From contig CM114271.1 of NCBI GenBank assembly GCA_050084515.1, forward strand, positions 13,206,001 to 13,270,000: a stretch of DNA of 64,000 nucleotides, given 5' to 3'. The DNA is from Blasia pusilla. Its lineage: Eukaryota. Below, in pieces: positions 821 through 44,479 of this stretch. A program made the position numbers and the translations under genes. Numbering within the stretch: position 1 is the first letter of the stretch; each line of letters opens with the position of its first letter. Below the pieces are notes generated by a model that saw only the letters and a program-made list of their open reading frames with translations, was not told the origin of the DNA and ran no database searches.

Positions 821-949
821 TGCCAAGTGATGGCACTGCTAAATGCTGCTAAGGTCGCCACCTCTCCTGGCCGTCGCTCGATCACTGCATCTGGAAATCG
901 AATGGGTAATGAGCTTAGGCGCCCATCACCTAACTGCCATCCTGGTCTG

Positions 950-5624: not shown

Positions 5625-7206
5625 GCGGGCATACACTATTTTCCATCCCCAAGTTTGTTGGTGAGAAAGGACAATCACCAAGAGGGTCTCTTCCGCAACC
5701 TCAGAACGCACAATCTGAGCCAGGCACACTACAGGATCAAGAATGTGATGTTCCTTGCATAGAAAATGCAGGTCCACTAGTAGAAGGTCCTGGATTAGAG
5801 GACATTGTCAATAAGGAATTTGTCTCTATTGTAGATATGGAAAGGGTATCAAGTGTAGATCACATGGAGGGTGTAAACCCGAGAATAAAGAGCGGAGTAG
5901 ACCAAGCCATGCACACGGTAAATCTTGGTAGAGTTGTATTGGATCAAAGCGACTCTCATTGCCGTGCTTGGTGCCCTTTATAGTAGTTCAAACTCTGAGG
6001 TCCACAAGGGGCCTTCTCAATAAGCCAAATTTAGCGGTAGTGAACTTGATAGTTAGCCCATGGCACGTTGCCACGACATTCCGGAAAATTCTCTGAATAA
6101 GTCTTGTGAAGGGAACTTGTTGCCTACAAAGCACTGCGATTATCGCAAAGAAGAGGAATCGAAAGTTAAAAGTGACACCAAGTGACAATAATGAGCGTCC
6201 CGGTTCATAGCATATGCGCGCTAGAAGAGTTCCACCACGTCACAAAGTTGCGTCACTGAAGAAGGCATCCTCAAAAACTTTGGCATCCTTGGCACCTAAA
6301 ACAGCAAAGGCTCCACGGTGATCCTTTAGGAGTCAAAGTTAAGTTTTGAAGCTAATGGAATTGCACTCACTCCACCACTGCAATAGTGGTGACGAACAGA
6401 TCTTTTGACATGAAACAATAATTATTGTAGCGGTGCGAGTTCACTTTGCTTGTGTTGTAGATATTTTAAACTTAATACTATCGGTGAATCTTTGTGAACT
6501 CACTAATTCTCACTTAGTTGCAGCGGTTAGGCGGAATAGGAAGTAGTGAACTTTGCAGAGGTTAAGTCTATATTTTGCAAGAGTTCTATTGGGTGATTAT
6601 TGTGAACTCACTAATTCCCAGTTAGTTGCAGCGGTTAGGAAGAATACGAGAATCATAAAACTCACTCATTCATTGTTAGTTCCTGCAAGGCCATAGTTTA
6701 AGGTTGGACATTTAAGACAGTAGGGTAACAAATCACCAATGTTATGTTTTGCAATAGCATTTTGGGGTGGACATATGAACCCTCGGACTATTCACAATGG
6801 AGTCATTTGTAGGACATGTTTTGCTCTATGGTGGTCACTATTCATGTACAAGTATTTTTCCTCCGTATTCTGGTGGTGGGTTCACCCTGGAGGATGCACA
6901 GGGTCTGAGTGTGCAATTTGGTTGGCATCTGGTTTAGGGGCCGGGGTGCTACTTGATTCTACTATGTTTAAAGTGGAAGTGTAGTTGTTTGCTTCATTTC
7001 CTTGTCTGGTTCATGTTTGGCCAACGGTACTTGAGACAACAGACCTCGAGTTGCACTCGGAAGTGGAGTATACTCAGACTTATGCATGGTAAAAATTCTT
7101 TGGCGAAGTATGAATGTTATGCGCATACTCTAAAACAATAAAGGAAACTAAGGTGAGGGTCATGTTTCATTCGCAAGAGTCTGCCCGAATGTTGCAAGGA
7201 TGAATA

Positions 7207-21201: not shown

Positions 21202-21420
<219 letters not shown>

Positions 21421-21799
21421 GCCTCACTAACAAGAGGTCACAAGTTGAGTTTGAGCTACCATGGAGACAACAAGTCGAGAGCTCTTGAATGCGGACTCTA
21501 CTCTACTAAGGCAAGGCTATCAAATTCTTGACGTCATTGATTAGCTAGAGTAGGATAGAAAGAATTGGATTAGCCCAATCCTACTTTTTTCCATACACCA
21601 CAGTTCCCCACAGATTAGCAAATGGCTACAAACTCAAACAAAACTCATTTTTTCCCTCATCCGCAAACCCCCCTAGTATAAGAGCATGAAAGATATTAAA
21701 GTTGATTTAAAGTGATGTATGATTGTCATCAAAACATAGCCTTAGTGGTTGCCAATACTTTTCTTCTATTGATAACTTCTCGAGATATATATGGGTATA

Positions 21800-28900: not shown

Positions 28901-30160
28901 GTTTCTTTTCCACTTTGAGCTAATTTTGAGACCATGCGCAAAAGTACACTCAACTTCTCTTCAAGAAGTTGGTGACTTGCCTAAAAATCATTTCATTTAT
29001 TTTGTTGCTCCCTTTGGCCATTTTCAATTTGGGATCTCATATCATGTAGACCTTCATCCAATTTGGTCTCCACCTCATTCATGTGGGAAGTGAGATCTGA
29101 TTCGACTCCCTCTCAAGCATAACAGATAGATAATACAAGTTGTCCATGATTTCTATGACAAATTTCCATCATTTTCCTTTCTATCCATGGCATCATCACC
29201 AACCAATTTTGAAAACTTCTATGTAAGTTACCCGTGAAGCCCACTAAAATTTGTACTTGTGGGGTGTGATGATGGAACCTCTTCTCTTGCTGTTCCATGA
29301 GCAGAAATATCTCTTTTTGGAACCCCCTGAAACACATCCCACGTTGTAGGTGTCATTATGCAAACATTTGAAATCAGAAACAACTACAGGTTTAGTATAT
29401 AAGCTTATGGGAATTCCTAAATTGATAGAGTAGATACCAAAACAACACCCAAAAATTTGAAGCTATATTTTTACAAGTGAAAGTCAAAGCTCGTGTTAAG
29501 GGCTTATTGAGAAACCGTCTAAGCCTGATCAGCCGTTGTAGTTCAAAGTCTGAACATGTGATCAAGGTTTCATCATTTGCTCAGCCTTAAATTTCCCTGA
29601 TTTTGACATCCAATAGTCGACCATTCGTTCCCGCTCCACGACCGTTGCTTCAAGGTGGCAAGGGACTTCTCTATGGCTTGCATTCTTGAGCCAATAGGTC
29701 TTTAAAGTTGACCTCTCAATTTTTAAGAGTTGGGCAATTTTCTTTCTTAAAAACTCAAGATCCAAAACAAGTGCACCAACATAGATATAGGATTCATTTA
29801 TATAGTTGGTAACCATTGCCATACTCACATGGTTATGTCTACTTATCTCGATACATGACAAATTGAGCTAACACATGGCTGTACTTTGAGATCACTCAAC
29901 CAAGGCTCATAAACATGAACCTTGGTTTTAGAACACCTGTTTGGCATTAATTAGCAAGGAGGTTACAAATTGAGATCCGTGCGTTGATTTACTTCATTTG
30001 TCCATACATCACGCTTGGATCTAATTGCCCTACCCCCTGCATAAGTAGTAAAAATGGGACAATGTGGAAATCTGAGCAAATAAAATCACAAAATAAGCAA
30101 AACTTCAAGTGCACTTTAGCCAAGTGGGATCCCCAAACAATACAATTGACTGGAAAGTGT
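25938..30160 (-). mobile_element. CACTA/EnSpm element 3' part with decayed TnpA/Tnp1-like gene
   Basis: TIR CACTAGAACAAA at 25938, dense subterminal repeats to ~26680; minus frame 27240-27510 KFHGKDIGPGLV*VD...TLGDVVGTSIV*P resembles Tnp1/En/Spm C-terminal domain. Confidence 0.7.
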
Positions 30161-30168
30161 GAGAGAGA

Positions 30169-30259
<91 letters not shown>
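30161..30259. repeat. (GA)n microsatellite
   Basis: Direct observation; abuts LINE 3' end. Confidence 0.99.
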
Positions 30260-30261
<2 letters not shown>

Positions 30262-32288
30262 TAAACTCATTAAGTAGTGCTTGTCGTAGCCTTGCTACCA
30301 TAGACCCCGGGCCCTGGTTGGACGGTGCTTGAGACTGGGATGGGTGTAGAGAGAGAAGCAAGTGAAGAAGGTACCATATGAGAGGAGGGAGACACTCTCA
30401 TATAGTGTGAGTGCTAACCAAACAACGTGTTTGTGCGGAGCTTCCAAGTGTCAACCAAGAAACTCTTCACCACACAATCTACTTTACCTGATTGGGATCC
30501 CCAATAGACATTACTTACCAGTGAAGCAGCTTTGGGCAATGAATCAAGGCTATTGAATGTGTTGAAAAATTTTGGTGCTACCAGCTTAGCAATATCAGCA
30601 TATGCTCTTGCTCTGTGTGTTGTGAATTTTGCGCAGGAGACCAAGTAATGACTAGAGGTTTCGTCCCCATCGTCACACAAGGCGCAAGAGTTTAGTTGTG
30701 TTCCCATCCTGCTTTTCTTATGGTTCAAGTGGATTGCCCCCATCCTGAACTTGAACTTGAGCCGGGTTCCCAAGAAAGGGGTTCCCCGCAAACAGTTCTT
30801 CAGTTTTGCCTTCTCGGGATATACCATCAAGAGAGAGAGGTCAAACATTTTCATGGCTTCCTCCATGCTGTTCTACTGTGAGCGTTTGCCCACTACTTTG
30901 GTTATCCACGAATGCTTTCTCATCTTGCTCCCACAGTTTAGGCCTTGCTAGGAGCTTGGAAGCTTGCACAATCTCTTGAACCTTTTTCGTCCAAGATTTG
31001 GCCTGCTTTACGGGTCTTTTTTGGGTCCAGGTTTTCCCCATCATCTCTTTAGGATAGCGATGGGAGTCTATTGTCTCCAGATCCTCCGCCATTTTAACTT
31101 GGCAATATCACGTCTATCCTCCAAGTGTTTCAAACCTAGTTCTGATCTCACACCAACTCGGGCTGTTCGTGATGAGGTTGACATCATACCCCGAAACGCC
31201 TTCAGCTGTATAGCTTCAAGCCTCTCCCTTGGTTTGGTGTTGGCATCCCACACTGCTGCCCCGTATTCCAGCGAGGGACAAATGGTATGCAAAATGACAG
31301 AGCGCTTTACTTCTTATGTGATATCCCGGCAGTGTAGGAATCTAGACAGATCGTTCACCTTCTTGTGGCCTTTCTCAGTAGTCTTCTTGATGTGTGCATC
31401 CCATATGAAATATTCCGAGAATTCTATGCCCAGATAGGTGTATGTAGCCATACGGGGGATCTCTTGTTTGCCCTAGTACCACTGTTGGTCTTGGTCCTCC
31501 TCCTTGCCATTGAAAATCATCACACCGCACTTCAATACATTTGCCTTCATTTCCCACATGTCACACCAGATTTTGGTCAGGGAGATCATCTCTTGGAGTT
31601 TCTCTCCTATTTCCTCGAGGCCACCAAAGTCATCAGCAAACATTAGGGCAACAACAAAGTTGTTGTCTACCCATAGTCCACTATCCTCCATTTCTTCCAA
31701 TAGGAAATTCACGAAAATGTTGAAGAGAGTGGGGGAGAGCGGGCATCCTTGACCCATTCCTTGCTTGATGTCGAATGTCCCACTCTTTTGGCCATTCACC
31801 AGAACTCTACTCCTTGTGTTCTGGTACATCTTCTCCACCACCCTCCATATTTTCCCTCTCAGCCCCGCCTTCCACAAGCTATAAGATAGCCCGTCACGCC
31901 ATACAGTGTCATATGCCTTCTTGAGGTCCAAGAAGAAGCAATAGGTGGATTTCCCCTCTTTCTTCCTACCCTAGATAATTTGACTAAAGGTGAAGATGTG
32001 ATCCATGCATCCTCGGGCTTGCCTGGCCCTCCTTGATGACAGAATTCTCCTCCAAGTACACAGAGATCCTATTGTTGAGTATACGGCAAAGGAGCTTCCC
32101 GACTACACTCAACAATGTAATACCCCTGTAGTTTCTAGGGTCTTCTCGCTCACCCTTCTTGAAGAGGTTCACGATGATTCCCACCCGCCATCTTTGTGGG
32201 ATGACTTTTGCCTACTAGATCAGATTGAAGAGACTCACTAGAGAACGAGCCATAGCAGCATCACCATACTTCAACATCTCATTCACAA

Positions 32289-32764
32289 TGTCACGTCCTT
32301 TAGAATAGATCGGTGAGATCTAGTAGAGCGTCTTCAAGAGTAGTGGAGGACAGGCCTAGGAGGTCAAGGATGACCTACTGAGGCCTCGGGAAACCTAAGA
32401 GAGCAGGTTTCCCCTTCGTTTTGGCTCATTTGGAGCCATATTGAGGAACTTACTATTTTAGGTAAGTACCATTTTGAGTATATGATCACCTTTCTATTTT
32501 TGTTAAGTGGCCCTTGACCTCCTACATCAGGTCAAGAGCCGAAGAGGTGACTTGGGAGAATAGGTTACCATGGAGAGAGCTTGAGAGCTCATTCTCTCTT
32601 TGTTGAACCTCTTGGCATGAGGCGGCGGAGCTATGGTCCCTTGCCTTGTGAGTGTAACCCAAGCCTTTCATTAGGGGAGTGGGTTTGGTTTGACATGAGA
32701 GATAGTGCACACCTTTGAGAGCTATGGTGTGAGATTATGTAGAGAGAGATTGGATCGTACTTTA
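32289..32764 (+). repeat. Terminal repeat A1
   Basis: Near-identical to 41998-42512 apart from a ~39-bp deletion. Confidence 0.93.
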
Positions 32765-33379
32765 CAAAGAGAGAATGAGAGAATGAGAGAATGAGAGAAT
32801 GCGAGAATGAGAGAGTGAGATAGTGAGAGAGCTTCATGGGGGAGCTCGCTGGTCACTCGCTGTTTTTGCAGGTTGGGGACCGTGTTCCCCGTTCAACGGC
32901 TCATGGGAGTGCTCATCGGAGCAAGGGTTGCTTGGATTGTTCCTTGCATTAATTTGCCGATTTTTCGTGTGGAAGAGTGGCGCGCGGAAGCGCTACCCAA
33001 TTTCTAATAGGGATTGAGTATGGGGGCGGGTTGCCCCATGTCGGTGCTTTTGGGAGCACCATGTCGCTTGCTGATTTGCATTTTTACAGGTTTTACATTT
33101 TTGTTGGGAGGAATCAGCGCGGAAGCTTTGCCGAATGTTGGGTAGAAGAAAGAGACATTGGGCTTTACGACAGTCCCCGTCAGTGTTTACTGGAATCTCC
33201 GATTTCAAATTTTTTTATGTTGGCGTAGATCGTGAAGCTGTACATGCTGTGCAACAAACAATGTGCAATTTGGAGTTGCGAGCAAAACGTTATGGTCAAT
33301 CTTGCAAAACTGCCATTGCTAGGCGATTTTTAAGGTTAAATTGTGCAAACCCTAAACCAGCCGCCATACCGGCGGCGGC

Positions 33380-33500
33380 CGTCACCGACATAGTCACCGT
33401 CAACCATCAACGGTCAACCGTCACCAACGACGGTCAACCATCACCATCACCGTTCGTCCGTCACCATCAACGGTCAATCGTCACCGTCAATGGTCCACCG
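33380..33500 (+). repeat. Degenerate ~21-bp tandem repeats (CCGTCACCATCAACGGTCAA-like) in 5' UTR
   Basis: Direct observation; expanded version at 4370-4530 in copy 1. Confidence 0.75.
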
Positions 33501-34586
33501 TACGTTGTCCACCCTTGGTTGCCATTGCCGCCGCTGCGGAGTGGAGGGTCTTCCACAACGTTCGTTGATTCTCGGACTTGCGTCGCCATCACGTCATCAA
33601 CCTGTAATGGCATATGACCTCCTGTTATAGTGTTTGAGCTTTGATTTCCTGCTGCTATGTTGTGATTGGTAGCCGCTCAACGACGATCATGTGCCATGCC
33701 GTGACGCCCGTAGCCGCAACGCGTCGCCGATTGCCACACCGTGCCACTCATGGCCACACCACATCGTCTTGATCACAGAGCCGCTCCAGCATTGTGGAGC
33801 AGAGTGTGGGTTTATTGTTGATTGAGGAGGGTATGGGGCTAAATGCCGCATCCCATCATCGAGGGCCGTGCCGTTCGTAGCCGTTCCGTGCCGTCTGCAA
33901 CGCCGCACCGTTTCGCTGGAACTGCACCGTCTATCGAGGAGTTTTGAGTAACGTCAGTATGACTTGCTGATTGGAGGAGTTGTCTCCACGACCGAGTTGG
34001 GGTCGAGATTCGTAGTTGTTGAGGAGCGACATCGACATGTGTTCAAGTTACCCATTCTGGTCCTTTACCCTGCACGTGTGAGGGATTCTGGGATTCGGGT
34101 AGTTTATTTGAGGATATTGGGTGTGTGGATGCTGAGAGCATCATTTATGTATGTGATTTAGGGGACATAGACCTGTATGGGATGTCCAGAGTTGAGGGTA
34201 GGTTGTCGATGAGATGATAGCCTGGTCAATTTGCCGCACCACGCCGCTTATTGCCGCACATTACATGTCTCGGGGAAGGAGAGTGTAGATCGAGTGCCGC
34301 ATGTTTGGGATGAGTGATTGAGGGATTACTCGCGAGGCAAGAGTGATCGGGTGAGAAAGGCACGAGGGTCATCACGGCGTCCGTTCGGGACTTTGAGAGG
34401 CGAGGTGGTAAACCTGAGAGTAGCTCTAGAGGTTTTACGCGGAGTGGCGTGAGGTTCCGAGGGTCTTCACTTCAGGGACTACCTCGACCTCCTTCTGTGT
34501 CATCGTCAGACAAGGGGGAGGGTGTAGAGGAATTTGTGAGCACATCTCCACACATTGTGAGTGGTCCTACCAGTTAGGCGTACGAG

Positions 34587-35990
34587 ATGGACGATTGGGG
34601 TAGAGGACCGCATAGGTTTTCAGGTGGAGTAGGTACGATTGAGTTGCACGATTTCATAGCAGAGTTTAGGAGTTGGTGCGACTCCCAGCGGGCCAGGAAC
34701 TCTAGAGAGTTCAACCTGTTTACAGCATGGAACGATATGTTCCAGCATTTAGAGGGGGCATCCATGGACGATTACCATGAGTTTTCCCACATATATGCCC
34801 AGGAGATTGAGGCATGGCAACTCTACTACGACCCACACTATATGTCATGGACGGAGCCATTCCCAGATGAGGAGGAGGAGTCAGGAGAGGCTACTTCCTC
34901 TTCCACTAGTGATGTTTTAGGAGGGGTCACTCGCACTGGAGGAGTTGCACCGTCTAGTCGGGTTCGTCCCAGGTTCAACCTCGTGGTTGAGTTCTTTGCT
35001 GAGTTGAGGGCAAGCTAGCAAGGGGTATAGACGGAAAAGTTGCGGAGCATCCACAACTTCCAAAGGCGCCCGTGTGAGAGTTTACGTGAGGCTTACACTC
35101 GCTTGCGTCGGTTGATCAACGTCACTCAGGGGGTGATAGAGGCTCAGGCTATCCACTCATGGTACGCGATGCTGGACCAGACCCTACGGCCATGGGTGCA
35201 GGAGGGGGTACTTCTTATGATCACCTCCCCAACGTTGAGAGATGTTTTTAGGACCGCCGAGAACATTGAGCGCAACATGGCGGAGGAGAGCGTAGCCACC
35301 AGGGATTATGGGCGAGAGCAGTCGCGATTGGCTACACCACCTATGCAGCAACGTGGACTCCAAGATAGGTCAACTGTGGCACCACGAGCTCAGGGAGGAT
35401 ACCGGGAGCCCGTCGCACAGAGACTTGCGCCTTCATATGCGGCTCAACAGCAGCCGCCTACTATTACTTGTTGGTCATATGGTGGAGCCCATCATCAGCG
35501 CCATTGCACTCGTGAGGGTCATGGACGTATGCCTGAGCATGGAGGAGGAGATGGTGCTGCACCAAGAGGTTATCAGTGTGACTATTGTCAAAGGTATGGT
35601 CATACACGGGCCAGGTGTTTCAGTTTACATCCTGAGTTACGTTTGGACTGAGGGCCAAAGAGGACACTAGAGCGAGTAGCCGGTCCGAGTGGGCTACAGA
35701 TCGTGCACCAGGTGGTCCTGTTGGGGGACGAGGAGCTGGAGTTGCTCGACATGGTGGTGGAGCTGCCCGTGGAGGAGGTAGAGTACCACCACCTAGATGC
35801 GCCGAGGGAGACGCCGGATGTGAGGCTGGAATGGCTGCTCACATACAGCAGCTAGAGGAGTAGATTGCCGCTATGGCATTGAGGTTACCCGATGCCGGAT
35901 CCGTGGCATCGACATCATATGGAGCAGCTAAAGATCTACATGATCCTGGTTGGATGTGCGGGGTTGTTGAGATGGAGGCCGCCGCAGTTG
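34587..35990 (+). pseudogene. gag: gag with two CCHC knuckles
   Basis: FQRRPCESLREAYTRLRRL; TITCWSYGGAHHQRHC; YQCDYCQRYGHTRARC. Confidence 0.88.
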
Positions 35991-36519
35991 TGACGCGTGG
36001 AGCAGCCGTAGAGTTGGATCCATAGCGAGGGGAAGCCAGAAAACAAACTAGGCTTCCTCAGTCTTTCACTTTGTTTGAAGCGATGAGGACCCCATCGATG
36101 GGTCCTCATCAAAGTTCCTTAAGAGTTGGTGATGTTGTTGGTGTGCAGGCACGGAGGGTGATGGGAGAAGCGAGTACGACGACTCCTATTGTTGATGCTC
36201 ATGAGGGGCATGTGTTGACCACATTGTTGGGGGCGGCCACCATTGTGTACCGCACTCCTTTATTTTCTGCTTCCGATGTTATGACGTTGGGGGGTACGCC
36301 CGCCGAGGCTCTTCAGCTGGCCGCGTCACTTTGTGAGCCCGGAGTTGGAGTTCCTGCATCACGTTCAGAGGTGATTGCAGAGGAGGTAATCGACTTGCCC
36401 TTGGAGCGGATGCTCGGACTGTCCAAGTCAGATTCATGGCAGGCTGCGGCTGCTAGAATGGCGGAGATGCCCGCTAGACCCGCGATAGAGCGTGCCATGG
36501 CTTCTCCTGGTGTTGTGTT

Positions 36520-36900
36520 GCTGGATAACCGAGGAGAGGTCTTCTTGTTGGTACGTCCGGGAGGTAGAGCTTTTAGTCCGCAACGCGTCTTGTTGGACTT
36601 AGGAGCGCAACCCCTGATGTTGGGGAAAGCGTAATTCAGAGGATTGGGCTTGACGAGAGCCGATGTGGAGCGTTGTCCATTCCGGATACAGACATTCTTG
36701 GGTGGAGCGAGTACCACACAATATATCACCCGACAAGAGGTCGTGGTGAGGATTCGCCCGGGATATCCTACAGATGAGTCCATGGTGCGCGCCAAGGCGA
36801 TAGTGATTGATGCAGAGTCCTACGACGTCTTGGTTGGTGGAGCAGTGTTATACCCGATGGGTTTTTCCCTGGATTACTGGGAGGAGTCAGCGTCTATAGA
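36520..36900 (+). pseudogene. Aspartic protease
   Basis: RVLLDLGAQPLMLG ... YDVLVG. Confidence 0.8.
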
Positions 36901-37308
36901 CCAAGATGGCAGGTAGGTGATGGGTGCCTTAGCTCATTACCCGTTTGATTCACAGGTGCAGTGATCGAGCAACGGCCAGAAGAGATGGCGACCTTAGCAG
37001 CATTTACCAGTGCCATCACTTGGCCAAGTGATTTGATTGAGGGACATGTCCATGCAGAGGATACTCTTGTTCCTGACATTTCTATGGAGAGGAGTATTAT
37101 GGTAGCTGCATCATTCCGTGGAGGAGAGGTGCCGTTGTGAGGCTCGACTTAGGAGCTTCAACGATTGGCAGATGAGCACGTGCAGACCACGTGGAGCGAA
37201 GCGTTTGCACCAGAGCGTGACAGGTCTGAGGAACTCGAGGTAGCAAGGAGTGCTACAATGACACCCTTGGATACCACACCCATTATGTGGTGTATCCCGG
37301 GGGAGGGT

Positions 37309-38270
37309 ATTCGAGTGTTAGATCCCTTTGGAGGGATTAGCACCGGGTTAGCTGCTGTTTTGCAGACATGAGTGCGAGTACAACAGTACCTATATGTGGA
37401 GAGTGATGATGTTGCAAGGCGCGTCTCACTATGACATGTGGCGCAGTTATGCCTACGTTGTCCCGACTTATTGTCTGCGTCCGCAGTACATGGGTACTAG
37501 AGTTCCCTACCGAGGGATATTTCGTTGTTGGGGGCGCAAGACTTAGAGCGGGTAGGGACCATTGATTTGGTCATTTCCGGTTGGCCATGTCAGGGCCAAT
37601 CAAGTGCTGGACGAGGCAACGGGTTGGCTGACACTCGGTCCATGTTATTTTGGGAGATGTTGAGGGTCTTACGGCAGTTGCAGGAGCATCTGTCTCGTTC
37701 TCCAGCCTACATTCTGGAGAATGTGCCGATCTTAGGAGGCACGCACCTGATGAGCACTCATCACGAGTGGTGACGAGTGCTCATCAGGTGCGTGCCTAGA
37801 TTGGCCTAGCAGTGTTCTTGGATGCGGCGAGTGTAGGTTCTAGAGTCCATCGCATGCGTCTATGGTGGAACAACTTGGTGCCCCATGCGGTGTTACGCAG
37901 GGCGTATGCAAGAGTGGAGCGCCCCTCCCATTTATTAGTGGATTCCATTCTCGGTCCAAGTCGTCAATCACAGGCAGTGAGGCACGATGATCGACCACCG
38001 TTGACTGTGGTCAAAAGGGTAGGCAGGCCGCGGGCAGCCTTGCCCACGTTTGTGAGTTTTCCCGCTTCCTATGCATACAAGGAGGCTGGTCCTGGCTTGG
38101 TTTGGGATGACCAGGTTCAGCGGTTGGTGGAGCCCAACGCCCATGAGAGAGAGCGAGCGATGGGATTTCCCATAGGAGTGACGGCAGTACCGTCAGTGTC
38201 AGAGGCATCACGACGCCATGTCTTGGGTTAGGCGATGGACCTGAACTGCTTGACATGGATCCTCAGCTTG
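37309..38270 (+). pseudogene. DNMT3-like C5 cytosine DNA methyltransferase domain within pol
   Basis: Motif I IRVLDPFGGISTG, II YLYVE, III RDI, IV DLVISGWPCQG, VI YILENV, VIII LDAASVGSRVHRMRLWWNNL, IX ERERAMGFP, X RRHVLG*AM, in canonical order. Confidence 0.93.
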
Positions 38271-38612
38271 GGAGTGGCTGAGCAACGTCGTATGAGATGG
38301 CGACAGATCACAACGGTTGCGTTGGTGAGCCCCATGCCTACCGAGACGGTGGAGGCAGCGGCTGGGGGCGAGACCCGAGGAGATCTACGCACCAGGGGAG
38401 ATCGGGAGAGACACCCTTGGACTTCTTGGGATATTTTGCAGGTATGCAAGGAGATGATAGCCACAACATCGAGCATGGTTTCGGGCACAACACGTGGAGG
38501 AGATAAGAGTTTGCAGTTGGCTGCAGGAAAGCGAACGAGTGTTGTTGTTTGAGACAGGGTTGCACCATAGCAACCACCGATACCCGCGCCGGGGAGTCCT
38601 ACCGTAGTCACG

Positions 38613-39400
38613 ATGGAGACTTGGGAGTCAGATATGGGCCCTAAGTTGAAACGAGGAGAGTGGCGCCGAATACATCAGTTCCTCAGGAGTTATAGGAGCT
38701 ACTTTGCATTTAGCATGGAGGATTTGGGTACGCTGAAGGGCCCGGGGATCCGCATTGAGTTGTCGAGTGATACGACGATCTTCCGAAAACCCTACAAGTA
38801 TAGAGATATGGAGAGGGCTCTGATTCAGAGTAGGAGCCAGGACTTGGTCAGAGCAGAACTAGTGGAGATGTCGCATGGGGAGTATGCATTTGCCACTGTC
38901 ATGCCCTCCAAGAAGGATGTGCATGGCAACTGGACGGATAGGCGCATGTGTGGGGATTACCGACCTATCAATCGGCAGACGAAGTCCGATAGGTATGCCA
39001 TGCCCACCCCTGAGGAGATCTTTGATGCGATTGGTCACGCAAAGGTCTTCAATTCATTGGATTTGCGAGCCGGATACCATCAGCTGCCTATCAGATTGGA
39101 GGACATGCAGAAGACGGCATTTTGGGGCATCGATCCTCACGGGAAGGATTTTTTGTACCAGTGGCGGTTCTTACCATTTGGGTTAAAGAACGCCCCGGCT
39201 GAGTTTCAAAGGGTCATGGATAGGATCTTGGCTGGTCTGGATTTTTCTAGGTGTTATATTGATGACATCGTAGTCTTTAGCGCCACGGTTGAGGAGCATG
39301 AGCGACATCTAGAGGAGGTGTTTCGACGATTGCAATAAATGGGCTGAAGCTACATCCAGGCAAGTGCAAGTTCTTCTACGACCAGATTGAGTACTTGGGT
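38613..39400 (+). pseudogene. pol: Gypsy reverse transcriptase
   Basis: RMCGDYRPIN, LDLRAGYHQ, PFGLKNAPAEFQ, YIDDIVVFS. Confidence 0.96.
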
Positions 39401-40066
39401 CATACGATATACCCTGGGGGCCTTGGTGTTCAACAAACGAAGGTAGAGGCTATCTCATGCATTCCACGCCCTACAGATGTGAGCCGTGTTCGCGCATTCA
39501 TGGGATTGGCGAACTTCTATCGGCGATACGTCAAGGGATTCAGTTTGATTGCAAAGCCATTGACCTTGCTGACCAAGGTGGATCACGAGTGGCACTGGGG
39601 GGATGAGCAGGAGCAAGCATTTCAGTTGCTCAAGGACAGGTTGACGTCTGCGCCCATCTTGAGGAGACCGATCAGGGGGCGTCCTTTCCAGTTGCACACA
39701 GATTGGAGCATGTTGGGGCTTGGAGCGGTGCTCACCCAGCATGATGATGAGGGTAGAGAGTTCGTGGTGGCTTACGCTAGCCGCTCGAACAACGCTGCAG
39801 AGGCAAAGTACAGCTCGTATGAGGGTGAGTGCTTCGCTACGGTGTGGACTGTCACGCATTTCAGGTGTTACTTATTCGGCAACCCCTTTACCATCATCAT
39901 TGATCATCAACCCCTGAAGTGGTTGATGGAGTCCGAGAAGCTTATAGGGAAGCTTGCAAGATGGGCTCTGTTGTTGCAAGAGTGTGATTTTCAAGTGGTA
40001 CATAGATCTGGGACGCTCAACCAAGATGCAGATGGGTTGAGGCGTAATCCATACTCGAGTCAGTGA
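39395..40066 (+). pseudogene. pol: RT connection and RNase H
   Basis: QLHTDWSMLGLGAVL, VAYASR, YSSYEGE, DHQPLKWL, ADGL. Confidence 0.94.
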
Positions 40067-40429
40067 GATGCGACTAGAGCTCTATGGCATGGAGAGAGTG
40101 ATGAGGAGTCGGTGCCAGGATGGCACGCGTCGGTCTATTTAGGCATGTTGGCTATGGAGAGCCAGAGTGTGGAGACTTCGATGGCGAGGTCTAGTGGAGA
40201 GTCCTTGGATCTCGAGGCCAGTGAGGAGACGACAAGTGGTAGAGATATTCATGATGATGGAGTAGTCTTGGAGTACCTTCGTACTGGCAGCGTTGCAAGC
40301 ACAATGGGTGCTAGAGAGCAAGATCGGATCCTACAACGGGCCAGACGGTTCCGTTGGGAGGGGACACATGTTTTGAGGGTTTGGGAGGATGGCAGAGTAC
40401 GCGTAGTGCCGCATCCTTCACATAGAGCA

Positions 40430-41500
40430 CGACTAGTGCAACATGCCCACCAGGAGTTGGGTCACTTTCGGGTGAAGCGGACGTACAGCTTGCTCCAGAT
40501 TCAGTATTGGTGGCGAGGCATGCAGACTGACATTCAGCAGTTTGTTGCCAATTGCATGGTGTGTGATCAGGTCCGAGCATCGTTCAATGCTCCAACTCCA
40601 CAGTTGCATCCATTACCAATCATGGGCTTAGGGTATAGATGGAGTTTGGATTTTGCAGGACCTTTGCCTTTGACAGAGCGTCACAGTCGTTATGTTTTGG
40701 TGATGGTCGAGCACTTCTCAAAGTGGATCGAGTTGGTTGCATTGCTTGAAAAAGCGAGTGAGGGAGTAGCTTATGCCTTCCTTGATAGAGTGCTGAGTCA
40801 TTATGGCGCACCGGCTGAGGTGTTGACAAACCAGGGTACCGAGTTTCAGGGTGAGTTCCAAGCCTTGTGTGATCTAGCGTTGATCGACCACCGCGACGAC
40901 CGGCGAGATCATCCTAAGGCGGATGGATTGGCGGAGAGAGTTGTGCAGACGGTGAAGAGGGGTTTACGCAAGTATGGATTGCAGAGAGGTCACCTAGGAG
41001 ACTAGGACCTTCCATTTTCCATGGTTGGCGATGGGATACAGATTCAGCAAGCAGGCGTCTTTTTCACCGTACTTGCTACTTTATGGCCGAGAGCCAGATT
41101 TACCTACGGCCATTTACCATCGTCGAGATGCTGGTGAGGTGCTGGACCTTGATGACCCAGATGTATGGGTGCGAGCATGTTCTCAGAGGGCTAAGTTATT
41201 TCAGTGAGTGATGCCCATGGCGTTCGAGAACTTGGCGATTCCGCAACATCGGGATACGTTGAGGTATGCGACTATTCGGGGTGGTGGTTATCGACCAACT
41301 ATCCAGAGGTTTCATCAGGGAGATTATGTCTACTTGCAGCAGATGGCACCAACGACGTTGGATGTGACTGCAGGGCGCACTATCTTGAGAGTGCGTGACT
41401 TTTTGCCATCCGGTGTTCTCTTGCTCGAGGGACGCGATGGTATGGTATGGAAGGACCATGTGCATAATTGTGCACCATGTCACCTTCCTAACATTGATAT
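40430..41500 (+). pseudogene. pol: DDE integrase (HHCC + rve core)
   Basis: HQELGH...YWW...CMVC; WSLDFAGPL; VLTNQGTEF; ADGLAERVVQTVK. Confidence 0.94.
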
Positions 41501-41543
41501 TACATTGGATCCGAGCTTAGCAATAGTTTTTGCAGGCTTGCGT

Positions 41544-41681
41544 TGTATGTTGTGTGGTTACGCCGTAGTGCGCCACGATGCGATCTGTGATGGTTGTTCG
41601 AGAGGTTGGCATATGGCATGTCTGACACCACCTCTCACTAGGGTTCCTAGGGGACGATGGATGTGTCCCAGATGTACATAG
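41544..41681 (+). pseudogene. PHD finger at integrase C-terminus
   Basis: C4HC3: CMLC...[28 protein letters not shown]. Confidence 0.92.
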
Positions 41682-41858
41682 AGGAGATACTAGGTAAATT
41701 TCGATCCCGACTTTTTCTCTGACATGGATGACAGGAAGGCGACTAACGATGGGGCCACATGAGCACCAGGCCTTCTTGCTCTTAGCGTCCGAGAGATGTA
41801 TGTCATGGTAGGTAGGGATAGATGGCTATCTGGAGTTAGAGGGACCTAACCACCATCT

Positions 41859-41867
41859 AGGGGGGCG
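41859..41867 (+). other. Putative polypurine tract
   Basis: AGGGGGGCG immediately before repeat B1. Confidence 0.5.
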
Positions 41868-41995
41868 ATTGGAGATATTTTGGTACTTCTTGTCTTGTTG
41901 TTTGGATGCCATGAGTTAGCATAGGATCGTGCGTGTTTTTGTGTGTGTTCAGTGATAGCGATGTATGTTGTGTAGCGATGTGTATGCGCACGACA
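41868..41995 (+). repeat. Repeat B1
   Basis: ATTGGAGAT...GCGCACGACA, repeated at 42512-42624. Confidence 0.92.
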
Positions 41996-41997
41996 AC

Positions 41998-42512
41998 TGT
42001 CACGTCTTTTAGAATAGATCGGTGAGATCTAGTAGAGCGTCTTCAAGAGTAGTGGAGGACATGCCTAGGTGGTTGAGGATGACCTGCTGAGGCCCCGGGA
42101 AACCTGAGAGAGTAGGTTTCCCCTTTGTTTTGGCTCATTTGGAGCCATATTGAGGAACTTGCTATTTTAGGTAAGTACCATTTTGAGTATATGATCAACT
42201 TTCTATTTTTGTTAAGTGGCCCTTGACCTCCTACATCAGGTCAAGAGCCAAAGAGGTGACTTGGGAGAATAGGTTACCATGGAGAGGACTTGGGAGAGGG
42301 AGGGTATATATCCCAAAAGAGAGAGAGCTTGAGAGCTCATTCTCTCTTTGTTGAACCTCTTGGCATGAGGCGGCGGAGCTATGGCCCCTTGCCTTGTGAG
42401 TGTAACCCAAGCCTCTCATTAGGAGAGTGGGTTTGGTTTGACATGAGAGAGAGTGCACACCTTTGAGAGCTATGGTGTGAGATTGTGTAGAGAGAGATTG
42501 GATCTTACTTTA
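41998..42512 (+). repeat. Repeat A2 (contains TATATA at ~42305)
   Basis: TGTCACGTC...CTTACTTTA, copy of A1. Confidence 0.93.
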
Positions 42513-42624
42513 TTGGAGATATATTTTGGTACTTCTTGTCTCGTTGTTTGGATGCCATGAGTTAGCATGGGATCGTGCGTGTTTGTGTGTGTATTCAGTG
42601 ATAGCGATGTGTATGCGCACGACA
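42512..42624 (+). repeat. Repeat B2 (element 3' terminus)
   Basis: Copy of B1, followed by ACAA and resumption of LINE sequence. Confidence 0.92.
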
Positions 42625-44479
42625 ACAAGCTCATCACCACCGCCTGTTTTGTGGTTCACAAGTTCTTTGATCGTTGCTCCCACCTTAGCTAGGGAGAACC
42701 AATCGTTATATGGGTTGCCCAGCTCAACCTCATCATCTACCTTCTCCCGTTGTATCTTAACAAAATCCTCCACTACCCTCTCAAAGTTCTGCTCTTCAAG
42801 GGATATCCGAGCGGGCTTCCTGCCTAACTCCTTGTAATAGTCTTCCAACACATGTCGGATCTGTTTAGCCGTGGTCACCATTCCATCGTCTTTTCTCTTC
42901 AAGGCCTTTACGTCGTTTTTGTCTCTGGCCTTGCTCAATTTCTGCACTTCCATCCAGAACTTCTTCTAATTCTCAGTGAAATTCTCATTGATGGATGAGT
43001 ATGTCACTTGGTTCAATTTCTTCTTGTGCATGCGCACGAGAAGACGGGTTTCCTTGCGTAGGGCCACATACTCTGCCCACAAGGATGCATCGTCCCTTGC
43101 TTTGGCACTTGTTACATACGCTTCCATTCGTTTGGCAATGGCTGCCTTGAGTTCCAAGGATCACCATTTGACGGCTCTGCCGCATATTTTCAATTTCTTG
43201 CCGACAGCAATCTCGGCGGCATCTATCACTCCACGCTCCCACCATGCCAGCACCATGTCCACAGTTGCTCTTGTGAACCCAAAGGTCTTGACGGTAGATG
43301 CAATGAAAGTGTCAAATGCCAAGAGATTTTCTTCGAGCTTGCCAATGTACACCTTCTTGTTGCCCTCATCTTGGAAGTCCTCTATCCTCCATTTCTTAAT
43401 CACTCTCTTCACTGGTTTGGTCGAGCATTTTAGCCTTTGCTGCAACTCTGTCCAAACCAATGAATGATCTGATCTTCCAATGTCTGTCGCATCCATTGTG
43501 ATCTTCCCACTACGTGTGTAGAGTTCCTCATCCACAGCTATGTAGTCCACAATGGAGCTTTCATTCTCCTTGAAGTTGACCCTAGTCGAAGCCGGGGAAC
43601 CCACCTTATGCCTATCATTCAATGCCATCACTTGAAGTTCCCTCAACATCGTGATCAGCCGTGTGCCATTGCCATTCACTCTCACATCTCCAAACATCCC
43701 AATCTCCGCTTGGGAATCGGTGCCTTGCCCCACCTAGCTATTGAAGTCTCCCAACAAGACTATGTTTCCCTTTGTCAGGAACCCAAGGCAATCCGTTTTC
43801 ACACTATGCTGATGATCTCACACCTGTGCTGATGATCTCACACCTGTCCACCCCTGTGCTGATGATCTCACACCTGTCCACCATGAAGTCTCTGATGAAG
43901 AACCCGACACCCTTCATACCTCTGTTGTTGTCCGCCTGGGTGCTCCACATCTTTCCAAACCATGCATAGTGCAAGACATGGGGTATCTCCATTAACTTGG
44001 TTTCCCAAGTTTCGACCACCGCATATATGTATTTGATTTTTCAGCAAAACTTCAGCAACCTCAGTGCTTCATTGCATGGGTCAGTCCACAGAAGTTCTAG
44101 GTACCCAAACGGAGACCTGTCACTAAGTGGGTTGGGGGTCGGCGGGCACGCTTTTGGCGTCGGTGTGGCTGCTAGCGACATGGAACCTCTTCATGTGCAA
44201 GCTCTTCATCGCTGGTCCCTTGGAGAACACTAAAGACATTAGGTGTGTAGATCACCAACCGTTTTGTGGAGATGGGCCTTTCCTTCAAGCTGGAACCACC
44301 CTCGACTACCATAGCCCTCCAATTATAGGCACGTCTCAATTCTTGAGACACCAGTGGCCTCCTCTGCCCTTGATGGACACCTTGAAGATACATTGACGGC
44401 CATTCATCATCCGAGTAACTCCAGTAGTAGCGAGGAATTCAAAGCCCAAAGTTGCGCACATGATCTTAAACATTAAACA

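What the first reader, a model, noticed from the sequence alone, without database searches (positions are those of the whole stretch)
36520..39400. Gypsy retrotransposon with a DNMT3-like cytosine methyltransferase built into its polyprotein
Seen: C5-MTase motifs I (FGGISTG), II, III, IV (PCQ), VI (ENV), VIII (HRMRLWWNNL), IX (ERAMGFP) and X lie in order between protease and RT on the coding strand. The C-terminal half is in the same frame as RT. The second copy (1-5624) has the same C-terminal half at the same position, so this is a family trait rather than a one-off capture. Known: motif wording resembles animal/basal-plant DNMT3 (e.g. HRARYFWGNL, ERVFGFP) and is not circularly permuted like DRM; DNMT-bearing retrotransposons have been reported in dinoflagellates and charophyte algae. 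Inference: the enzyme could be packaged and methylate the cDNA or insertion site; presence in a land-plant-like genome would extend the known range.
Basis: partly seen in the sequence, partly recalled or inferred. Interest (0 to 1): 0.92.

Follow-up and report, generated by a model that had tools for sequence, protein, structure and literature searches.

The report
Dead bryophyte-type Gypsy element carrying DNMT3-like methyltransferase
This is a decayed copy of a jumping gene whose own protein includes a DNA-methylating enzyme of the DNMT3 type, a kind of element described so far only in a freshwater alga but here found to be a whole family in liverworts and mosses.

Summary
Window 32289-42624 (+) is a 10.3-kb Ty3/Gypsy-type retrotransposon: gag, protease, a C5-cytosine methyltransferase domain (37279-38290), RT, RNase H, integrase and a PHD finger.

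The domain is collinear (motifs I to X, not DRM-permuted) and DNMT3-like. A family profile hits DNMT3A/B/C at 1e-15, the next class at 3e-7. A modelled intact relative matches only DNMT3 chains in the listed Foldseek rows.

This copy is dead: four in-frame stops, one frame change at a private 28-nt-arm palindrome. The second copy (1-5625, -) has lost motifs I-VIII through a 914-bp deletion.

The domain is a family trait. All 38 related metagenome loci spanning protease to RT carry it, with dN/dS 0.12-0.17. Named relatives are Marchantia, Calypogeia, Sphagnum and Closterium.

New details:
- The DNMT ends ORF1 (gag-PR-DNMT), in front of a conserved TAG-CAA-CCA stop that matches the plant-virus read-through motif.
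- The repeats are A-coding-B-A-B, as published for Klebsormidium KnitGypsy-Dnmt3.
- Other copies are transcribed in sense.
- Chlorophyte relatives place the DNMT between RNase H and integrase.

Verdict: a new member of a known kind. The range extension to land plants was not found in print. The enzyme's function is untested.

The parts
32285..32288 (.). Left target-site duplication, ACAA
   Evidence: The uninterrupted sister copy of the host element (17827-18726) is continuous across the insertion point, and its 4 bases 18453-18456 align to both flanks. Flanks were read.
32289..32764 (+). Terminal repeat A1; begins with TG
   Evidence: 94-97% identical to A2.
34578..35651 (+). gag with two CCHC knuckles (35469-35507, 35577-35618); frame 0
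   Evidence: Homologous to the gag part of the Marchantia and metagenome relatives. Knuckles located. No Pfam hit above cut-off.
36026..36916 (+). Aspartic protease region, frame 2. The active-site stretch reads LLDLGAQ at 36590-36610, where the family consensus reads DSG.
   Evidence: Aligns to the PR part of relatives. Relative P0010 hits Asp_protease_2 at E=3.6e-5. Consensus. The window pieces themselves gave no Pfam hit.
37153..37773 (+). DNMT N-terminal half, motifs I-VI, frame 1; in-frame stops at 37369, 37432 and 37498
   Evidence: PF00145 at E=2.1e-12. Best solved-structure match is DNMT3A at 5.6e-5. Frames and stops.
37737..37797 (.). Inverted repeat with 28-nt arms (96% complementary, 5-nt loop), at the place where the reading frame changes from 1 to 0
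   Evidence: Nothing longer than 6 nt in the homologous stretch of the 2 intact relatives examined, L045 and L054 (the script stopped with an error at the third).
37800..38300 (+). DNMT C-terminal half, motifs VIII-X, frame 0; stop at 38229 inside motif X
   Evidence: 66-68% identical to Marchantia proteins. Motifs VIII and IX align to DNMT3A, though not significantly on their own (E about 0.8). Coordinates.
38568..38576 (+). TAG CAA CCA: conserved in-frame stop ending ORF1 (gag-PR-DNMT), in a UAG-CAR-YYA context; RT follows in the same frame
   Evidence: The same stop sits at the homologous place in copy 2. It is also there in 15 of 30 related loci with an RT hit (13 TAG, 2 TAA), and all 15 are followed by CAR. 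Motif as described in PMC3542737.
38571..39338 (+). Reverse transcriptase, frame 0 (YIDD at 39255-39278)
   Evidence: PF00078 at E=1.1e-21.
39302..40066 (+). RNase H, frame 2
   Evidence: PF17917 at E=2.1e-34 and PF17919 at 1.9e-33.
40067..41005 (+). Integrase (H2C2 zinc finger plus DDE core), frame 2
   Evidence: PF17921 at 3.1e-16 and PF00665 at 1.6e-9.
41208..41681 (+). C-terminal extension of integrase with a PHD finger (41544-41678), frame 0
   Evidence: PF00628 at E=2.7e-7. The same domain follows integrase in relatives.
41869..41997 (+). Repeat B1, directly upstream of A2
   Evidence: Aligns to B2. The B1-A2 junction reads ..CA-AC-TG...
41998..42512 (+). Repeat A2
42513..42624 (+). Repeat B2; the element ends in CA
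42625..42628 (.). Right target-site duplication, ACAA
1..5625 (-). Second copy of the same family, cut off by the window edge inside RT. It is 79-94% identical to copy 1 and has a 914-bp deletion covering DNMT motifs I-VIII (copy 1 positions 37025-37938). It keeps TAG CAA CCA at about 163-155.

Best explanation
Window 36520-39400 is the middle of one decayed copy (32289-42624, + strand) of a Ty3/Gypsy-type retrotransposon family. The family's polyprotein carries a DNMT3-like C5-cytosine methyltransferase.

Family design, read from this copy together with intact relatives:
- 5'-TG, repeat A.
- ORF1 = gag (CCHC), protease, DNMT.
- A conserved UAG in a CAR-YYA context.
- ORF2 in the same frame = RT, RNase H, integrase, PHD finger.
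- Repeats B-A-B, ending in CA-3', with a 4-bp target duplication.

Shown:
- The domain order, the DNMT3-like sequence and fold, and conserved catalytic motifs.
- Purifying selection on the domain in relatives.
- Sense transcription of other family copies in the same species label.
- Both copies in this window are dead.

Inferred: most ribosomes stop at the UAG, so Gag-PR-DNMT is made in bulk. A minority read through to give Gag-PR-DNMT-RT-RH-IN-PHD. After protease cleavage the methyltransferase sits in the particle beside the cDNA and methylates it, or methylates the new insertion. The PHD finger steers integration by reading histone tails. Whether the enzyme works on DNA is untested.
For: Domains and their order:
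- PF00145 at 2.1e-12, RVT_1 at 1.1e-21, RT_RNaseH at 2.1e-34, Integrase_H2C2 at 3.1e-16, rve at 1.6e-9, PHD at 2.7e-7.

DNMT3-likeness:
- A profile of 16 family proteins hits 29 DNMT3A/B/C sequences at 1.2e-15 to 7.5e-12. Next come M.HaeIII at 3.1e-7 and DRM and M.HhaI at 4.9e-5. The alignment is collinear from motif I to VIII.
- An AlphaFold model of the intact relative L001:12500-13846 has pLDDT 81.9 and pTM 0.80. Every listed Foldseek row is DNMT3A, 3B or 3C; the best is 6f57_D at E=2.4e-18, TM 0.82.
- PC-Q, ENV, the motif VIII H/R residues and the motif I glycines are invariant in 16 of 16 aligned family proteins.

Family trait:
- 38 of 38 related loci spanning PR to RT hold both DNMT halves. 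Their PR-to-RT spacing is mostly 1625-1741 nt (1655 in the window); three are about 2.5 kb and two are shorter.
- The same order is seen in Marchantia, Calypogeia, Sphagnum and Closterium proteins.

Selection:
- L045/L058: dN 0.037, dS 0.24, ratio 0.155.
- L045/L054: ratio 0.12.
- L001/L010: ratio 0.17.

Leaky-stop design:
- In intact L045, ORF1 (976-5082) is gag-PR-DNMT and ORF2 (5086-8226) is RT-RH-IN-PHD in the same frame, one TAG apart.
- The stop is at the homologous place in 15 of 30 loci with an RT hit, and all 15 are followed by CAR.
- Both window copies share TAG CAA CCA, while their other stops are private.
- The motif is as defined in PMC3542737.

Integration: TG..CA ends and 4-bp duplications, ACAA here and AATC in L022.

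Transcription: three stranded RNA runs of the same species label cover the whole coding region including the DNMT. The first mate lies on the minus strand far more often than on the plus strand, roughly 7- to 95-fold over the whole stretch depending on the run. 2088-2518 of 2429-2876 laid reads per run are only 90-95% alike, so they come from other copies.
Against: - No enzymatic evidence exists. The DNMT domain of the closest published element (KnitGypsy-Dnmt3) gave no de novo methylation in yeast; the authors call this inconclusive because human DNMT3B also failed.
- Both window copies are pseudogenes. The copy 1 versus copy 2 dN/dS on the shared DNMT part is 0.47 over 116 codons, against 0.63-0.65 in the two wrong frames, so nothing can be concluded inside the window.
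- In 11 of the 15 loci the context is CAA CCC, which misses the last A of CARYYA.
- Some type-A relatives (P0264, P0260, P0273, P0275, P0144) run from DNMT into RT with no stop. Read-through is therefore a sub-lineage design and is not demonstrated.
- Depth over the DNMT N-half is about half that of the PR and RT bins, both in DNA contigs and in RNA. Part of the copies in that species may lack it, as copy 2 does, or the region may simply be more diverged.
- No named host DNMT3, DRM or Klebsormidium sequence could be put in a tree. 'DNMT3-like' rests on profile and fold ranking, not on phylogeny.
- No tRNA-type primer-binding site (TGG...) follows A1 and no purine tract precedes A2, read by eye only.
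Confidence: 0.8

Rival explanations
1. The domain is kept by selection but does not methylate the element's own cDNA. It might methylate RNA (the genomic RNA or tRNA), act on host chromatin in trans, or mark the new insertion so that the element silences itself and limits its copy number.
For: KnitGypsy-Dnmt3 DNMT showed no DNA methylation in yeast. The same paper raises RNA methylation as an option for its LINE-borne DNMT. Placing the domain in the abundant ORF1 product together with gag would suit a nucleic-acid-binding or chaperone-like role as well as a DNA role.
Against: Sequence and fold rank with the DNA enzymes DNMT3A/B/C. The RNA enzyme DNMT2 ranks far lower (E about 0.03, absent). 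All DNA-methyltransferase catalytic motifs are invariant in 16 of 16 family proteins.
Confidence: 0.15
2. The methyltransferase stretch is a one-off event: a host DNMT3 fragment captured by this copy, a nested insertion, or an assembly chimera.
For: The copy sits in a nest of transposons. The domain is in another frame than its neighbours.
Against: The same order and spacing are present in 38 of 38 related loci and in named proteins of four streptophyte genera. The two halves group with those relatives in an 18-row clade with SH-aLRT 100. The frame change is explained by a private palindrome.
Confidence: 0.02
3. The Marchantia-type gag-PR-DNMT proteins are domesticated host genes, and the window holds pseudogenes of such a gene rather than a mobile element.
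For: Marchantia gene models end after the DNMT (P0006, P0008) and are filed as ordinary hypothetical proteins.
Against: The window copy has terminal repeats, TG..CA ends, a 4-bp target duplication and a full RT-RH-IN-PHD behind the stop. Fifteen Marchantia models of 82-100% identity and thousands of laid contigs show a multicopy family. The models' end coincides with the conserved UAG.
Confidence: 0.03

Closest known systems
KnitGypsy-Dnmt3 of Klebsormidium nitens (de Mendoza et al. 2018, PMC5890265; passages and section 10 read)
   Same: A non-permuted Dnmt3-like domain inside the polyprotein of an element with Gypsy domain content. The repeat arrangement is 'as in DIRS' (A-coding-B-A-B). Ka/Ks is below 0.2 on the domain. 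The host is a streptophyte.
   Different: Here the hosts of named relatives are land plants (liverworts, a moss) and Closterium. The position of the domain at the end of ORF1 before a UAG-CAR-YYA stop, the PHD finger, the TG..CA ends and the 4-bp duplication are not in the passages I read. Direct sequence relationship was not tested, because no Klebsormidium sequence surfaced by name. The paper's figures and supplements were not seen.
SymbioDIRS-Dnmt3 of Symbiodinium (same paper)
   Same: A Dnmt3-like domain in Pol and A-coding-B-A-B repeats. Its domain methylates CG de novo in yeast.
   Different: It is a DIRS element with a tyrosine recombinase. The present family has a DDE integrase with an H2C2 finger, Gypsy-type RT and RNase H, and target-site duplications.
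Cellular DNMT3A/3B/3C (solved structures such as 6f57, 5yx2, 6u8p, 8tci)
   Same: Best sequence-profile and fold matches, the same motif order I-X, and a short region between motifs VIII and IX.
   Different: Only 19-23% identity. No PWWP or ADD domain. The domain is embedded between a retroelement protease and RT.
Plant DRM2 / NtDRM (4onj, 7l4c)
   Same: A related catalytic domain.
   Different: DRM is circularly permuted. Here motifs run I to X collinearly, and DRM scores about ten orders of magnitude worse than DNMT3A with the family profile.
Chromoviruses (Ty3/Gypsy elements with a chromodomain after integrase; role as stated in the 2026 bioRxiv preprint 10.64898/2026.05.21.726589, passages read)
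   Same: A chromatin-reader module at the C-terminus of integrase.
Type I leaky stop of tobamoviruses, UAG-CAR-YYA (Firth and Brierley 2012, PMC3542737, one passage read); gag-pol read-through of gammaretroviruses (recalled)
   Same: An in-frame UAG followed by CAA CCA, with the polymerase downstream in the zero frame.
   Different: Here the stop follows protease and DNMT, not gag or a replicase core. Read-through has not been measured.
EpiLTRs of Cymbomonas and Euglena (same 2026 preprint, passages read)
   Same: LTR elements that carry a cytosine DNMT plus a chromatin reader.
   Different: Their DNMT is sister to DNMT4, is appended at the 3' end of pol, and is combined with a Dam-like adenine methyltransferase.

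Membership tests
C5-cytosine DNA methyltransferase (PF00145) | Pfam model hit above the gathering score | tested here: met
   47.6 bits against a cut-off of 22, E=2.1e-12, on window 37501-37773. Relatives score 27-37 bits.
C5-cytosine DNA methyltransferase (PF00145) | Catalytic motifs IV (PC) and VI (ENV) and SAM motif I (FxGxG) present | tested here: met
   FGGISTG, GWPCQGQS and ILENVP are in the window and invariant in 16 of 16 relatives. The open reading frame of this copy is broken, so this copy encodes no enzyme.
DNMT3 class | Closer to DNMT3 than to DNMT1/CMT, DNMT2, DRM or bacterial enzymes by sequence profile | tested here: met
   DNMT3A/B/C at 1.2e-15 to 7.5e-12, then M.HaeIII at 3.1e-7 and DRM at 4.9e-5. 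DNMT1 and DNMT2 do not appear at E<=0.001.
DNMT3 class | DNMT3-like fold | tested here: met
   The model of relative L001 (pLDDT 81.9) has only DNMT3A/B/C chains in the listed Foldseek rows, with TM 0.80-0.84 to catalytic-domain chains. The model is of a relative about 65% identical, not of the broken window copy.
DNMT3 class | Placement inside the DNMT3 clade in a tree with named DNMT3, DRM and other references | not tested
   No named reference sequences could be obtained. The tree holds only element-borne domains.
DRM (domains-rearranged methyltransferases) | Circular permutation: motifs VI-X precede I-V | tested here: not met
   Motifs lie in the order I, II, IV, VI, VIII, IX, X along the strand. 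The profile aligns collinearly to DNMT3A.
Ty3/Gypsy LTR retrotransposon | Domain order PR-RT-RNase H-IN with Gypsy-type RNase H and an H2C2 plus DDE integrase | tested here: met
   PF00078, PF17917/PF17919, PF17921 and PF00665, in that order.
Ty3/Gypsy LTR retrotransposon | Two identical-at-insertion LTRs, TG..CA ends, short target duplication | tested here: met
   A1 and A2 are 94-97% identical, with TG..CA ends and a 4-bp ACAA duplication. The arrangement is A-coding-B-A-B rather than a plain LTR pair.
Ty3/Gypsy LTR retrotransposon | tRNA primer-binding site after the 5' LTR and a polypurine tract before the 3' LTR | tested here: inconclusive
   Read by eye only. A (GAGAATGA)n run follows A1, no TGG start is seen, and B1 ends GCGCACGACA. 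No tRNA comparison was made.
KnitGypsy-Dnmt3-like elements | Dnmt3-like domain in the polyprotein of an element with Gypsy domains and DIRS-like A-coding-B-A-B repeats | tested here: met
   compared with the figure legends of PMC5890265. The same repeats are seen in L022 and L040.
KnitGypsy-Dnmt3-like elements | Sequence relationship to the Klebsormidium elements | not tested
   No Klebsormidium-labelled protein appeared. The paper's sequences are in supplements that were not available.
Type I programmed stop-codon read-through | UAG followed by CAR-YYA, with an essential zero-frame ORF downstream | tested here: met
   Window 38568-38576 reads TAG CAA CCA, followed by RT. Conserved in copy 2. 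Full motif in 4 of 15 loci and CAA CCC in the other 11.
Type I programmed stop-codon read-through | Measured read-through | not testable with these tools
   Needs a reporter assay or ribosome profiling.
Chromovirus | Chromodomain after integrase | tested here: not met
   Pfam finds a PHD finger (E=2.7e-7) and no chromodomain in 41208-41681.

The most novel reading that the evidence does not exclude
PHD-bearing Gypsy elements that carry a DNMT3-like enzyme form an old, Viridiplantae-wide lineage with two fixed designs. Named chlorophytes place the DNMT between RNase H and integrase. Named streptophytes, including living liverworts and mosses, place it between protease and RT. In the bryophyte branch the enzyme sits upstream of a leaky UAG and is therefore made in Gag-like amounts. 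It would be an active de novo methyltransferase that methylates the element's cDNA, and possibly host DNA. That would make it an element-encoded contributor to land-plant methylomes.
Probability: 0.3. Interest if true: 0.75.

Novelty: new member of a known kind. Interest (0 to 1): 0.5.

Why it matters
Transposons that carry their own cytosine methyltransferase turn the usual picture around, in which the host methylates the transposon. The only described Gypsy case is in one charophyte alga, and its enzyme's activity was left open.

- **Better test systems.** The same kind of element is multicopy and transcribed in bryophyte-type genomes. Intact relatives lie in Marchantia gene models filed as 'hypothetical protein'. 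This gives experimentally tractable land-plant systems in which to ask what such an enzyme does.
- **A caution for gene counts.** DNMT3 copy counts in bryophyte annotations include transposon genes.
- **Testable features.** The enzyme's placement before a plant-virus-type leaky stop, and the two alternative positions of the domain in green algae versus streptophytes, are concrete features that can be tested.

Tried and rejected
- **Whole-genome search of the source assembly:** no genome is held. A copy census and the share of intact copies in the source species could therefore not be made.
- **Earlier notes of the scan:** nothing by place or by sequence. By words, one note on another genome.
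- **Host identification:** ORFs of 130 aa or more outside the two copies looked like transposon debris only, with no host gene to place the organism. Run and organism names are coded. I name no species for the window.
- **RNA holders in the run index:** no RNA holder was listed. Expression evidence comes only from the raw reads laid.
- **In-window dN/dS:** inconclusive.
- **ESM Atlas look-up of the Marchantia domain:** only generic 'C-5 methylase' clusters, scores 0.89-0.90, nothing added.
- **CpG observed/expected:** 0.75 in the element against 0.53-0.58 in the rest of the window. Not informative about methylation history.
- **Literature:** no paper in the searchable library mentions the Marchantia gene identifiers or combines Marchantia, LTR, DNMT and polyprotein. 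Hits for bryophyte plus 'DNA methyltransferase domain' were irrelevant. Supplements of PMC5890265 and PMC12344493, which may list land-plant transposon DNMT3s, could not be seen.
- **One-off capture or chimera, and a domesticated host gene:** both considered and rejected (see rival explanations).
- **Stops at the PR/DNMT border in L010 and L058:** considered as a second programmed stop. Rejected because L045, 93% identical to L058 in the DNMT domain, has none.
Full report
**1. What is at the coordinates**

Reading the + strand from stop to stop shows the usual train of retroelement ORFs. Pfam confirms them:
- gag: 34578-35651.
- Protease-like ORFs: 36026-36916.
- C5-cytosine methyltransferase (PF00145): E=2.1e-12, 47.6 bits against a cut-off of 22, on 37501-37773.
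- Reverse transcriptase: 38571-39338, E=1.1e-21.
- Gypsy-type RNase H: 39302-40066, E=2.1e-34.
- Integrase with H2C2 finger and DDE core: 40067-41005.
- PHD finger: 41544-41678, E=2.7e-7.

- I, FGGISTG: 37327-37347.
- II-like, YVESDD: 37393-37410.
- IV, GWPCQGQS: 37579-37602.
- VI, ILENVP: 37711-37728.
- VIII, HRMRLWWNNL: 37848-37877.
- IX, ERAMGFP: 38151-38171.
- X: 38220-38246.

The C-terminal piece alone hits no Pfam model. On its own it aligns to DNMT3A only at E about 0.8. Its identity rests on its relatives.

**2. This copy is dead, and so is the other one**

Motifs I-VI lie in frame 1, with in-frame stops at 37369, 37432 and 37498. Motifs VIII-X lie in frame 0, with a stop at 38229 inside motif X.

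The frame changes at a private inverted repeat with 28-nt arms, 37737-37797. Two intact relatives have nothing longer than 6 nt in the homologous stretch (the script stopped at the third).

Further frame changes separate gag, PR, RT, RNase H, IN and the PHD part.

The second copy (1-5625, minus strand) is 79-94% identical and collinear up to 37024. It then jumps to 37939, a 914-bp deletion that removes motifs I-VIII. It keeps the region from there to the window edge, with private stops of its own.

**3. Limits and ends of the element**

- Repeat A1 (32289-32764) matches A2 (41998-42512) at 94-97%.
- The 112 bases after A2 (B2, 42513-42624) repeat the 129 bases before A2 (B1, 41869-41997). The arrangement is therefore A-coding-B-A-B.
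- The element is inserted in another repeat whose uninterrupted sister copy (17827-18726) runs straight across the insertion point and shares 4 bases with both flanks.
- The element thus starts with TG at 32289, ends with CA at 42624, and is flanked by ACAA on both sides.
- The same A..B-A-B arrangement is present in the related loci L022 and L040. L022 has TG..CA ends and a 4-bp AATC duplication.
- PMC5890265 describes 'A-coding region-B-A-B' for its DIRS elements. [quoted passage not shown]
- How an element with a DDE integrase maintains this arrangement is not explained by anything I did.

**4. What kind of methyltransferase**

- The N-terminal half, read through with X at its stops, finds DNMT3A best among solved structures (5.6e-5). 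DRM and a bacterial enzyme follow closely at 2.6e-4.
- A profile of 16 family proteins separates the classes. Twenty-nine DNMT3A/3B/3C sequences score 1.2e-15 to 7.5e-12. M.HaeIII scores 3.1e-7, and DRM and M.HhaI 4.9e-5. The alignment is collinear.
- An AlphaFold model of the nearest intact relative (L001:12500-13846; pLDDT 81.9, pTM 0.80) returns only DNMT3A/B/C chains in the listed Foldseek rows. The best is E=2.4e-18, TM 0.82, 23% identity.
- The domain is therefore DNMT3-like and not permuted like DRM.
- A tree with named DNMT3, DRM and Klebsormidium references could not be made.

**5. Family trait**

*Named proteins with the window's domain order*
- The C-terminal half finds 12 long proteins: 6 of Marchantia polymorpha at 66-68% identity, 1 of Sphagnum fallax, and 5 unnamed.
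- A search with the Marchantia domain finds 54 proteins. Fifteen are Marchantia models and one is from Calypogeia fissa.
- Mapping the window's own pieces on these proteins gives gag-PR-DNMT, with RT following in some models.

*Wider searches*
- An exhaustive HMMER search with the N-terminal half gives 2095 cluster representatives at E<=0.001 and 345 at E<=1e-10.

*Related metagenome loci*
- One metagenome scan gave 79 related loci, about 70% identical in DNA to the window element.
- All 38 that span protease to RT hold both DNMT halves. The PR-to-RT spacing is mostly 1625-1741 nt, against 1655 in the window. The retrieval patterns were one DNMT motif and one protease motif, so this set is partly biased towards presence.
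- Most of these loci are decayed. By my criteria six have the whole domain in one ORF: L045, L054, L001, L010, L058 and the type-B L068.

*Selection*
- Among them dN/dS on the domain is 0.155 (L045/L058, dS 0.24), 0.12 (L045/L054) and 0.17 (L001/L010). Three pairs had saturated dS.
- Motif IV PC-Q, motif VI ENV and the motif VIII H/R residues are invariant in 16 of 16 aligned proteins.
- Inside the window the copy 1/copy 2 comparison is uninformative: 0.47 against 0.63-0.65 in the wrong frames.

**6. A conserved stop between DNMT and RT**

- In intact L045, ORF1 (gag-PR-DNMT, 976-5082) and ORF2 (RT-RH-IN-PHD, 5086-8226) are in the same frame, one TAG apart. L054, L010, L058, L001, L004 and L033 show the same.
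- Of 30 loci with an RT hit, 15 have the ORF-opening stop at the homologous place: 13 TAG and 2 TAA. All 15 are followed by CAA or CAG. Four have the full CAR-YYA and 11 have CAA CCC. In the other 15 a later stop opens the ORF, so the place could not be scored this way.
- The window reads TAG CAA CCA at 38568-38576, and copy 2 has the same nine bases. Copy 1's stops at 38229 and 38550 are sense codons in copy 2, and copy 2 has other private stops.
- UAG-CAR-YYA is the type I read-through motif of tobamoviruses and other plant viruses (PMC3542737, one passage read).
- This explains why the Marchantia models end shortly after the DNMT.
- Some more distant type-A proteins run from DNMT into RT without a stop (P0144, P0260, P0264, P0273, P0275). 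The stop is therefore a sub-lineage design.
- Read-through itself is an inference.

**7. Transcription**

- Three stranded RNA-seq runs carrying the same species label as the best DNA holders cover all 30 bins of 34400-41800.
- First mates lie on the minus strand far more often than on the plus strand, roughly 7- to 95-fold over the whole stretch depending on the run. In most stranded libraries this means sense RNA.
- Between 2088 and 2518 of the 2429-2876 laid reads per run are only 90-95% alike, and 4-6 reads per run reach 99% or more. The RNA therefore comes from other family copies.
- At two places where this copy changes frame (39335-39338 and 41010), a large share of reads carry an indel relative to it.
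- Depth over the DNMT N-half is about half that of the PR and RT bins, in RNA and in the DNA contigs. Some copies may lack it, as copy 2 does, or the region may be more diverged.
- In the DNA contigs the family reads G or C where this copy has A or T at 247 places, against 78 the other way. This fits G/C-to-A/T decay of this copy.

**8. Wider relatives**

- A profile search for long proteins gave 83 hits.
- Mapping the window's pieces on the 59 new proteins with hits gives 42 with RT-RH-DNMT-IN-PHD. The rest mostly have PR-DNMT-RT....
- All three named chlorophyte proteins have the DNMT between RNase H and integrase: Scenedesmus sp. PABB004, Monoraphidium neglectum and Chlamydomonas eustigma.
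- Named streptophyte proteins (Closterium NIES-53/54, Marchantia, Calypogeia, Sphagnum) have it between protease and RT.
- In a quick maximum-likelihood tree of 121 domain rows, the window's two halves, entered separately, sit together in an 18-row clade with the Marchantia and Calypogeia rows (SH-aLRT 100).
- One side of a branch with support 97 holds 47 of 47 type-A rows and 1 of 49 type-B rows.
- The tree has no outgroup, so one capture followed by a move and two captures from related donors cannot be told apart.

**9. Comparison with what is known, and novelty**

- DNMT-bearing retrotransposons were described in Symbiodinium and in Klebsormidium nitens (PMC5890265).
- Later papers of the same group speak of 'streptophytes (Gypsy-DNMT3)', citing that work (PMC12344493 and the 2026 preprint, passages read).
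- I found no paper in the searchable library that reports such elements in liverworts, mosses or any land plant. The supplements of those papers, which I could not see, may list them.
- The Klebsormidium domain did not methylate DNA in yeast, an outcome the authors call inconclusive.
- The finding is a real, correctly read member of a known kind. It extends the named host range to land plants and adds anatomical detail: ORF1 placement before a leaky-type stop, the PHD finger, TG..CA ends with a 4-bp duplication, and two domain positions in the green lineage.
- The copy in the window is itself a fossil.

**10. Scores**

- Identity of the feature: about 0.95.
- The whole best explanation, including the read-through design: 0.8.
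- The self-methylation function alone: about 0.35.
- Interest: 0.5.

Noticed in passing
Proteins P0013, P0014, P0035, P0044, P0097, P0226, P0276 and others (no window coordinates): A second design of DNMT-bearing, PHD-bearing Gypsy polyprotein, RT-RH-DNMT-IN-PHD, is common in metagenome assemblies: 42 of 59 new proteins with hits. All three named chlorophyte proteins have it (Scenedesmus sp. PABB004, Monoraphidium neglectum, Chlamydomonas eustigma). Named streptophytes have PR-DNMT-RT.
   Followed up: partly
window 32289-32764, 41869-42624; L022 1326-1664 and 11785-12353; L040 7652-7979 and 16049-16617: The terminal repeats are arranged A-coding-B-A-B, yet the element has a DDE integrase, TG..CA ends and a 4-bp target duplication. 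The internal B1-A2 junction reads ..CA-AC-TG.., like a joined pair of element ends. How such an element replicates is unexplained.
   Followed up: partly
window 32765-32830: A (GAGAATGA)n-like short tandem run lies directly after repeat A1, where a tRNA primer-binding site would be expected. No TGG start was seen by eye.
   Followed up: no
window 37737-37797: A near-perfect palindrome (28-nt arms, 5-nt loop) lies inside the DNMT coding region, exactly at the frame change. It is private to this copy among those looked at and looks like a small inverted duplication.
   Followed up: partly
window 16391-20251 and 30244-32288 plus 42629-44352: Two copies (90-96% identical) of another repeat. Its minus-strand ORFs look like a non-LTR (LINE-type) reverse transcriptase and endonuclease, judged by eye from recalled motifs with no Pfam run. 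The second copy is split by the Gypsy-DNMT insertion.
   Followed up: partly
window 48453-50354 and 52491-55181: Two copies of a different Gypsy-like element (RT, RNase H and integrase ORFs) lie in inverted orientation, 73-83% complementary.
   Followed up: no
window 21110-21520 and 30065-30307: Arrays of a short unit (period 8-10 bases, 59 overlapping register copies reported) occur at two places about 8.7 kb apart.
   Followed up: no
window 34400-41800 (read-laying table 1): Against the family's DNA contigs this copy has A or T where they have G or C at 247 places, and the reverse at 78. This is a one-sided G/C-to-A/T decay, as expected for a methylated, silenced copy. The sequence context of the changes was not examined.
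   Followed up: no
Protein P0224: A protein labelled 'MAG: Spirochaetia bacterium' carries the integrase, PHD finger and part of the DNMT of this eukaryotic element family (E=7.6e-12). It is probably eukaryotic DNA binned into a bacterial genome.
   Followed up: no
Marchantia polymorpha proteins P0004-P0009, P0181-P0191, P0210: Fifteen Marchantia gene models annotated as hypothetical proteins are ORF1 (gag-PR-DNMT) of this element family; one is titled 'DNA (cytosine-5...' in UniRef. Counts of DNMT3 genes taken from such annotations would be inflated.
   Followed up: partly
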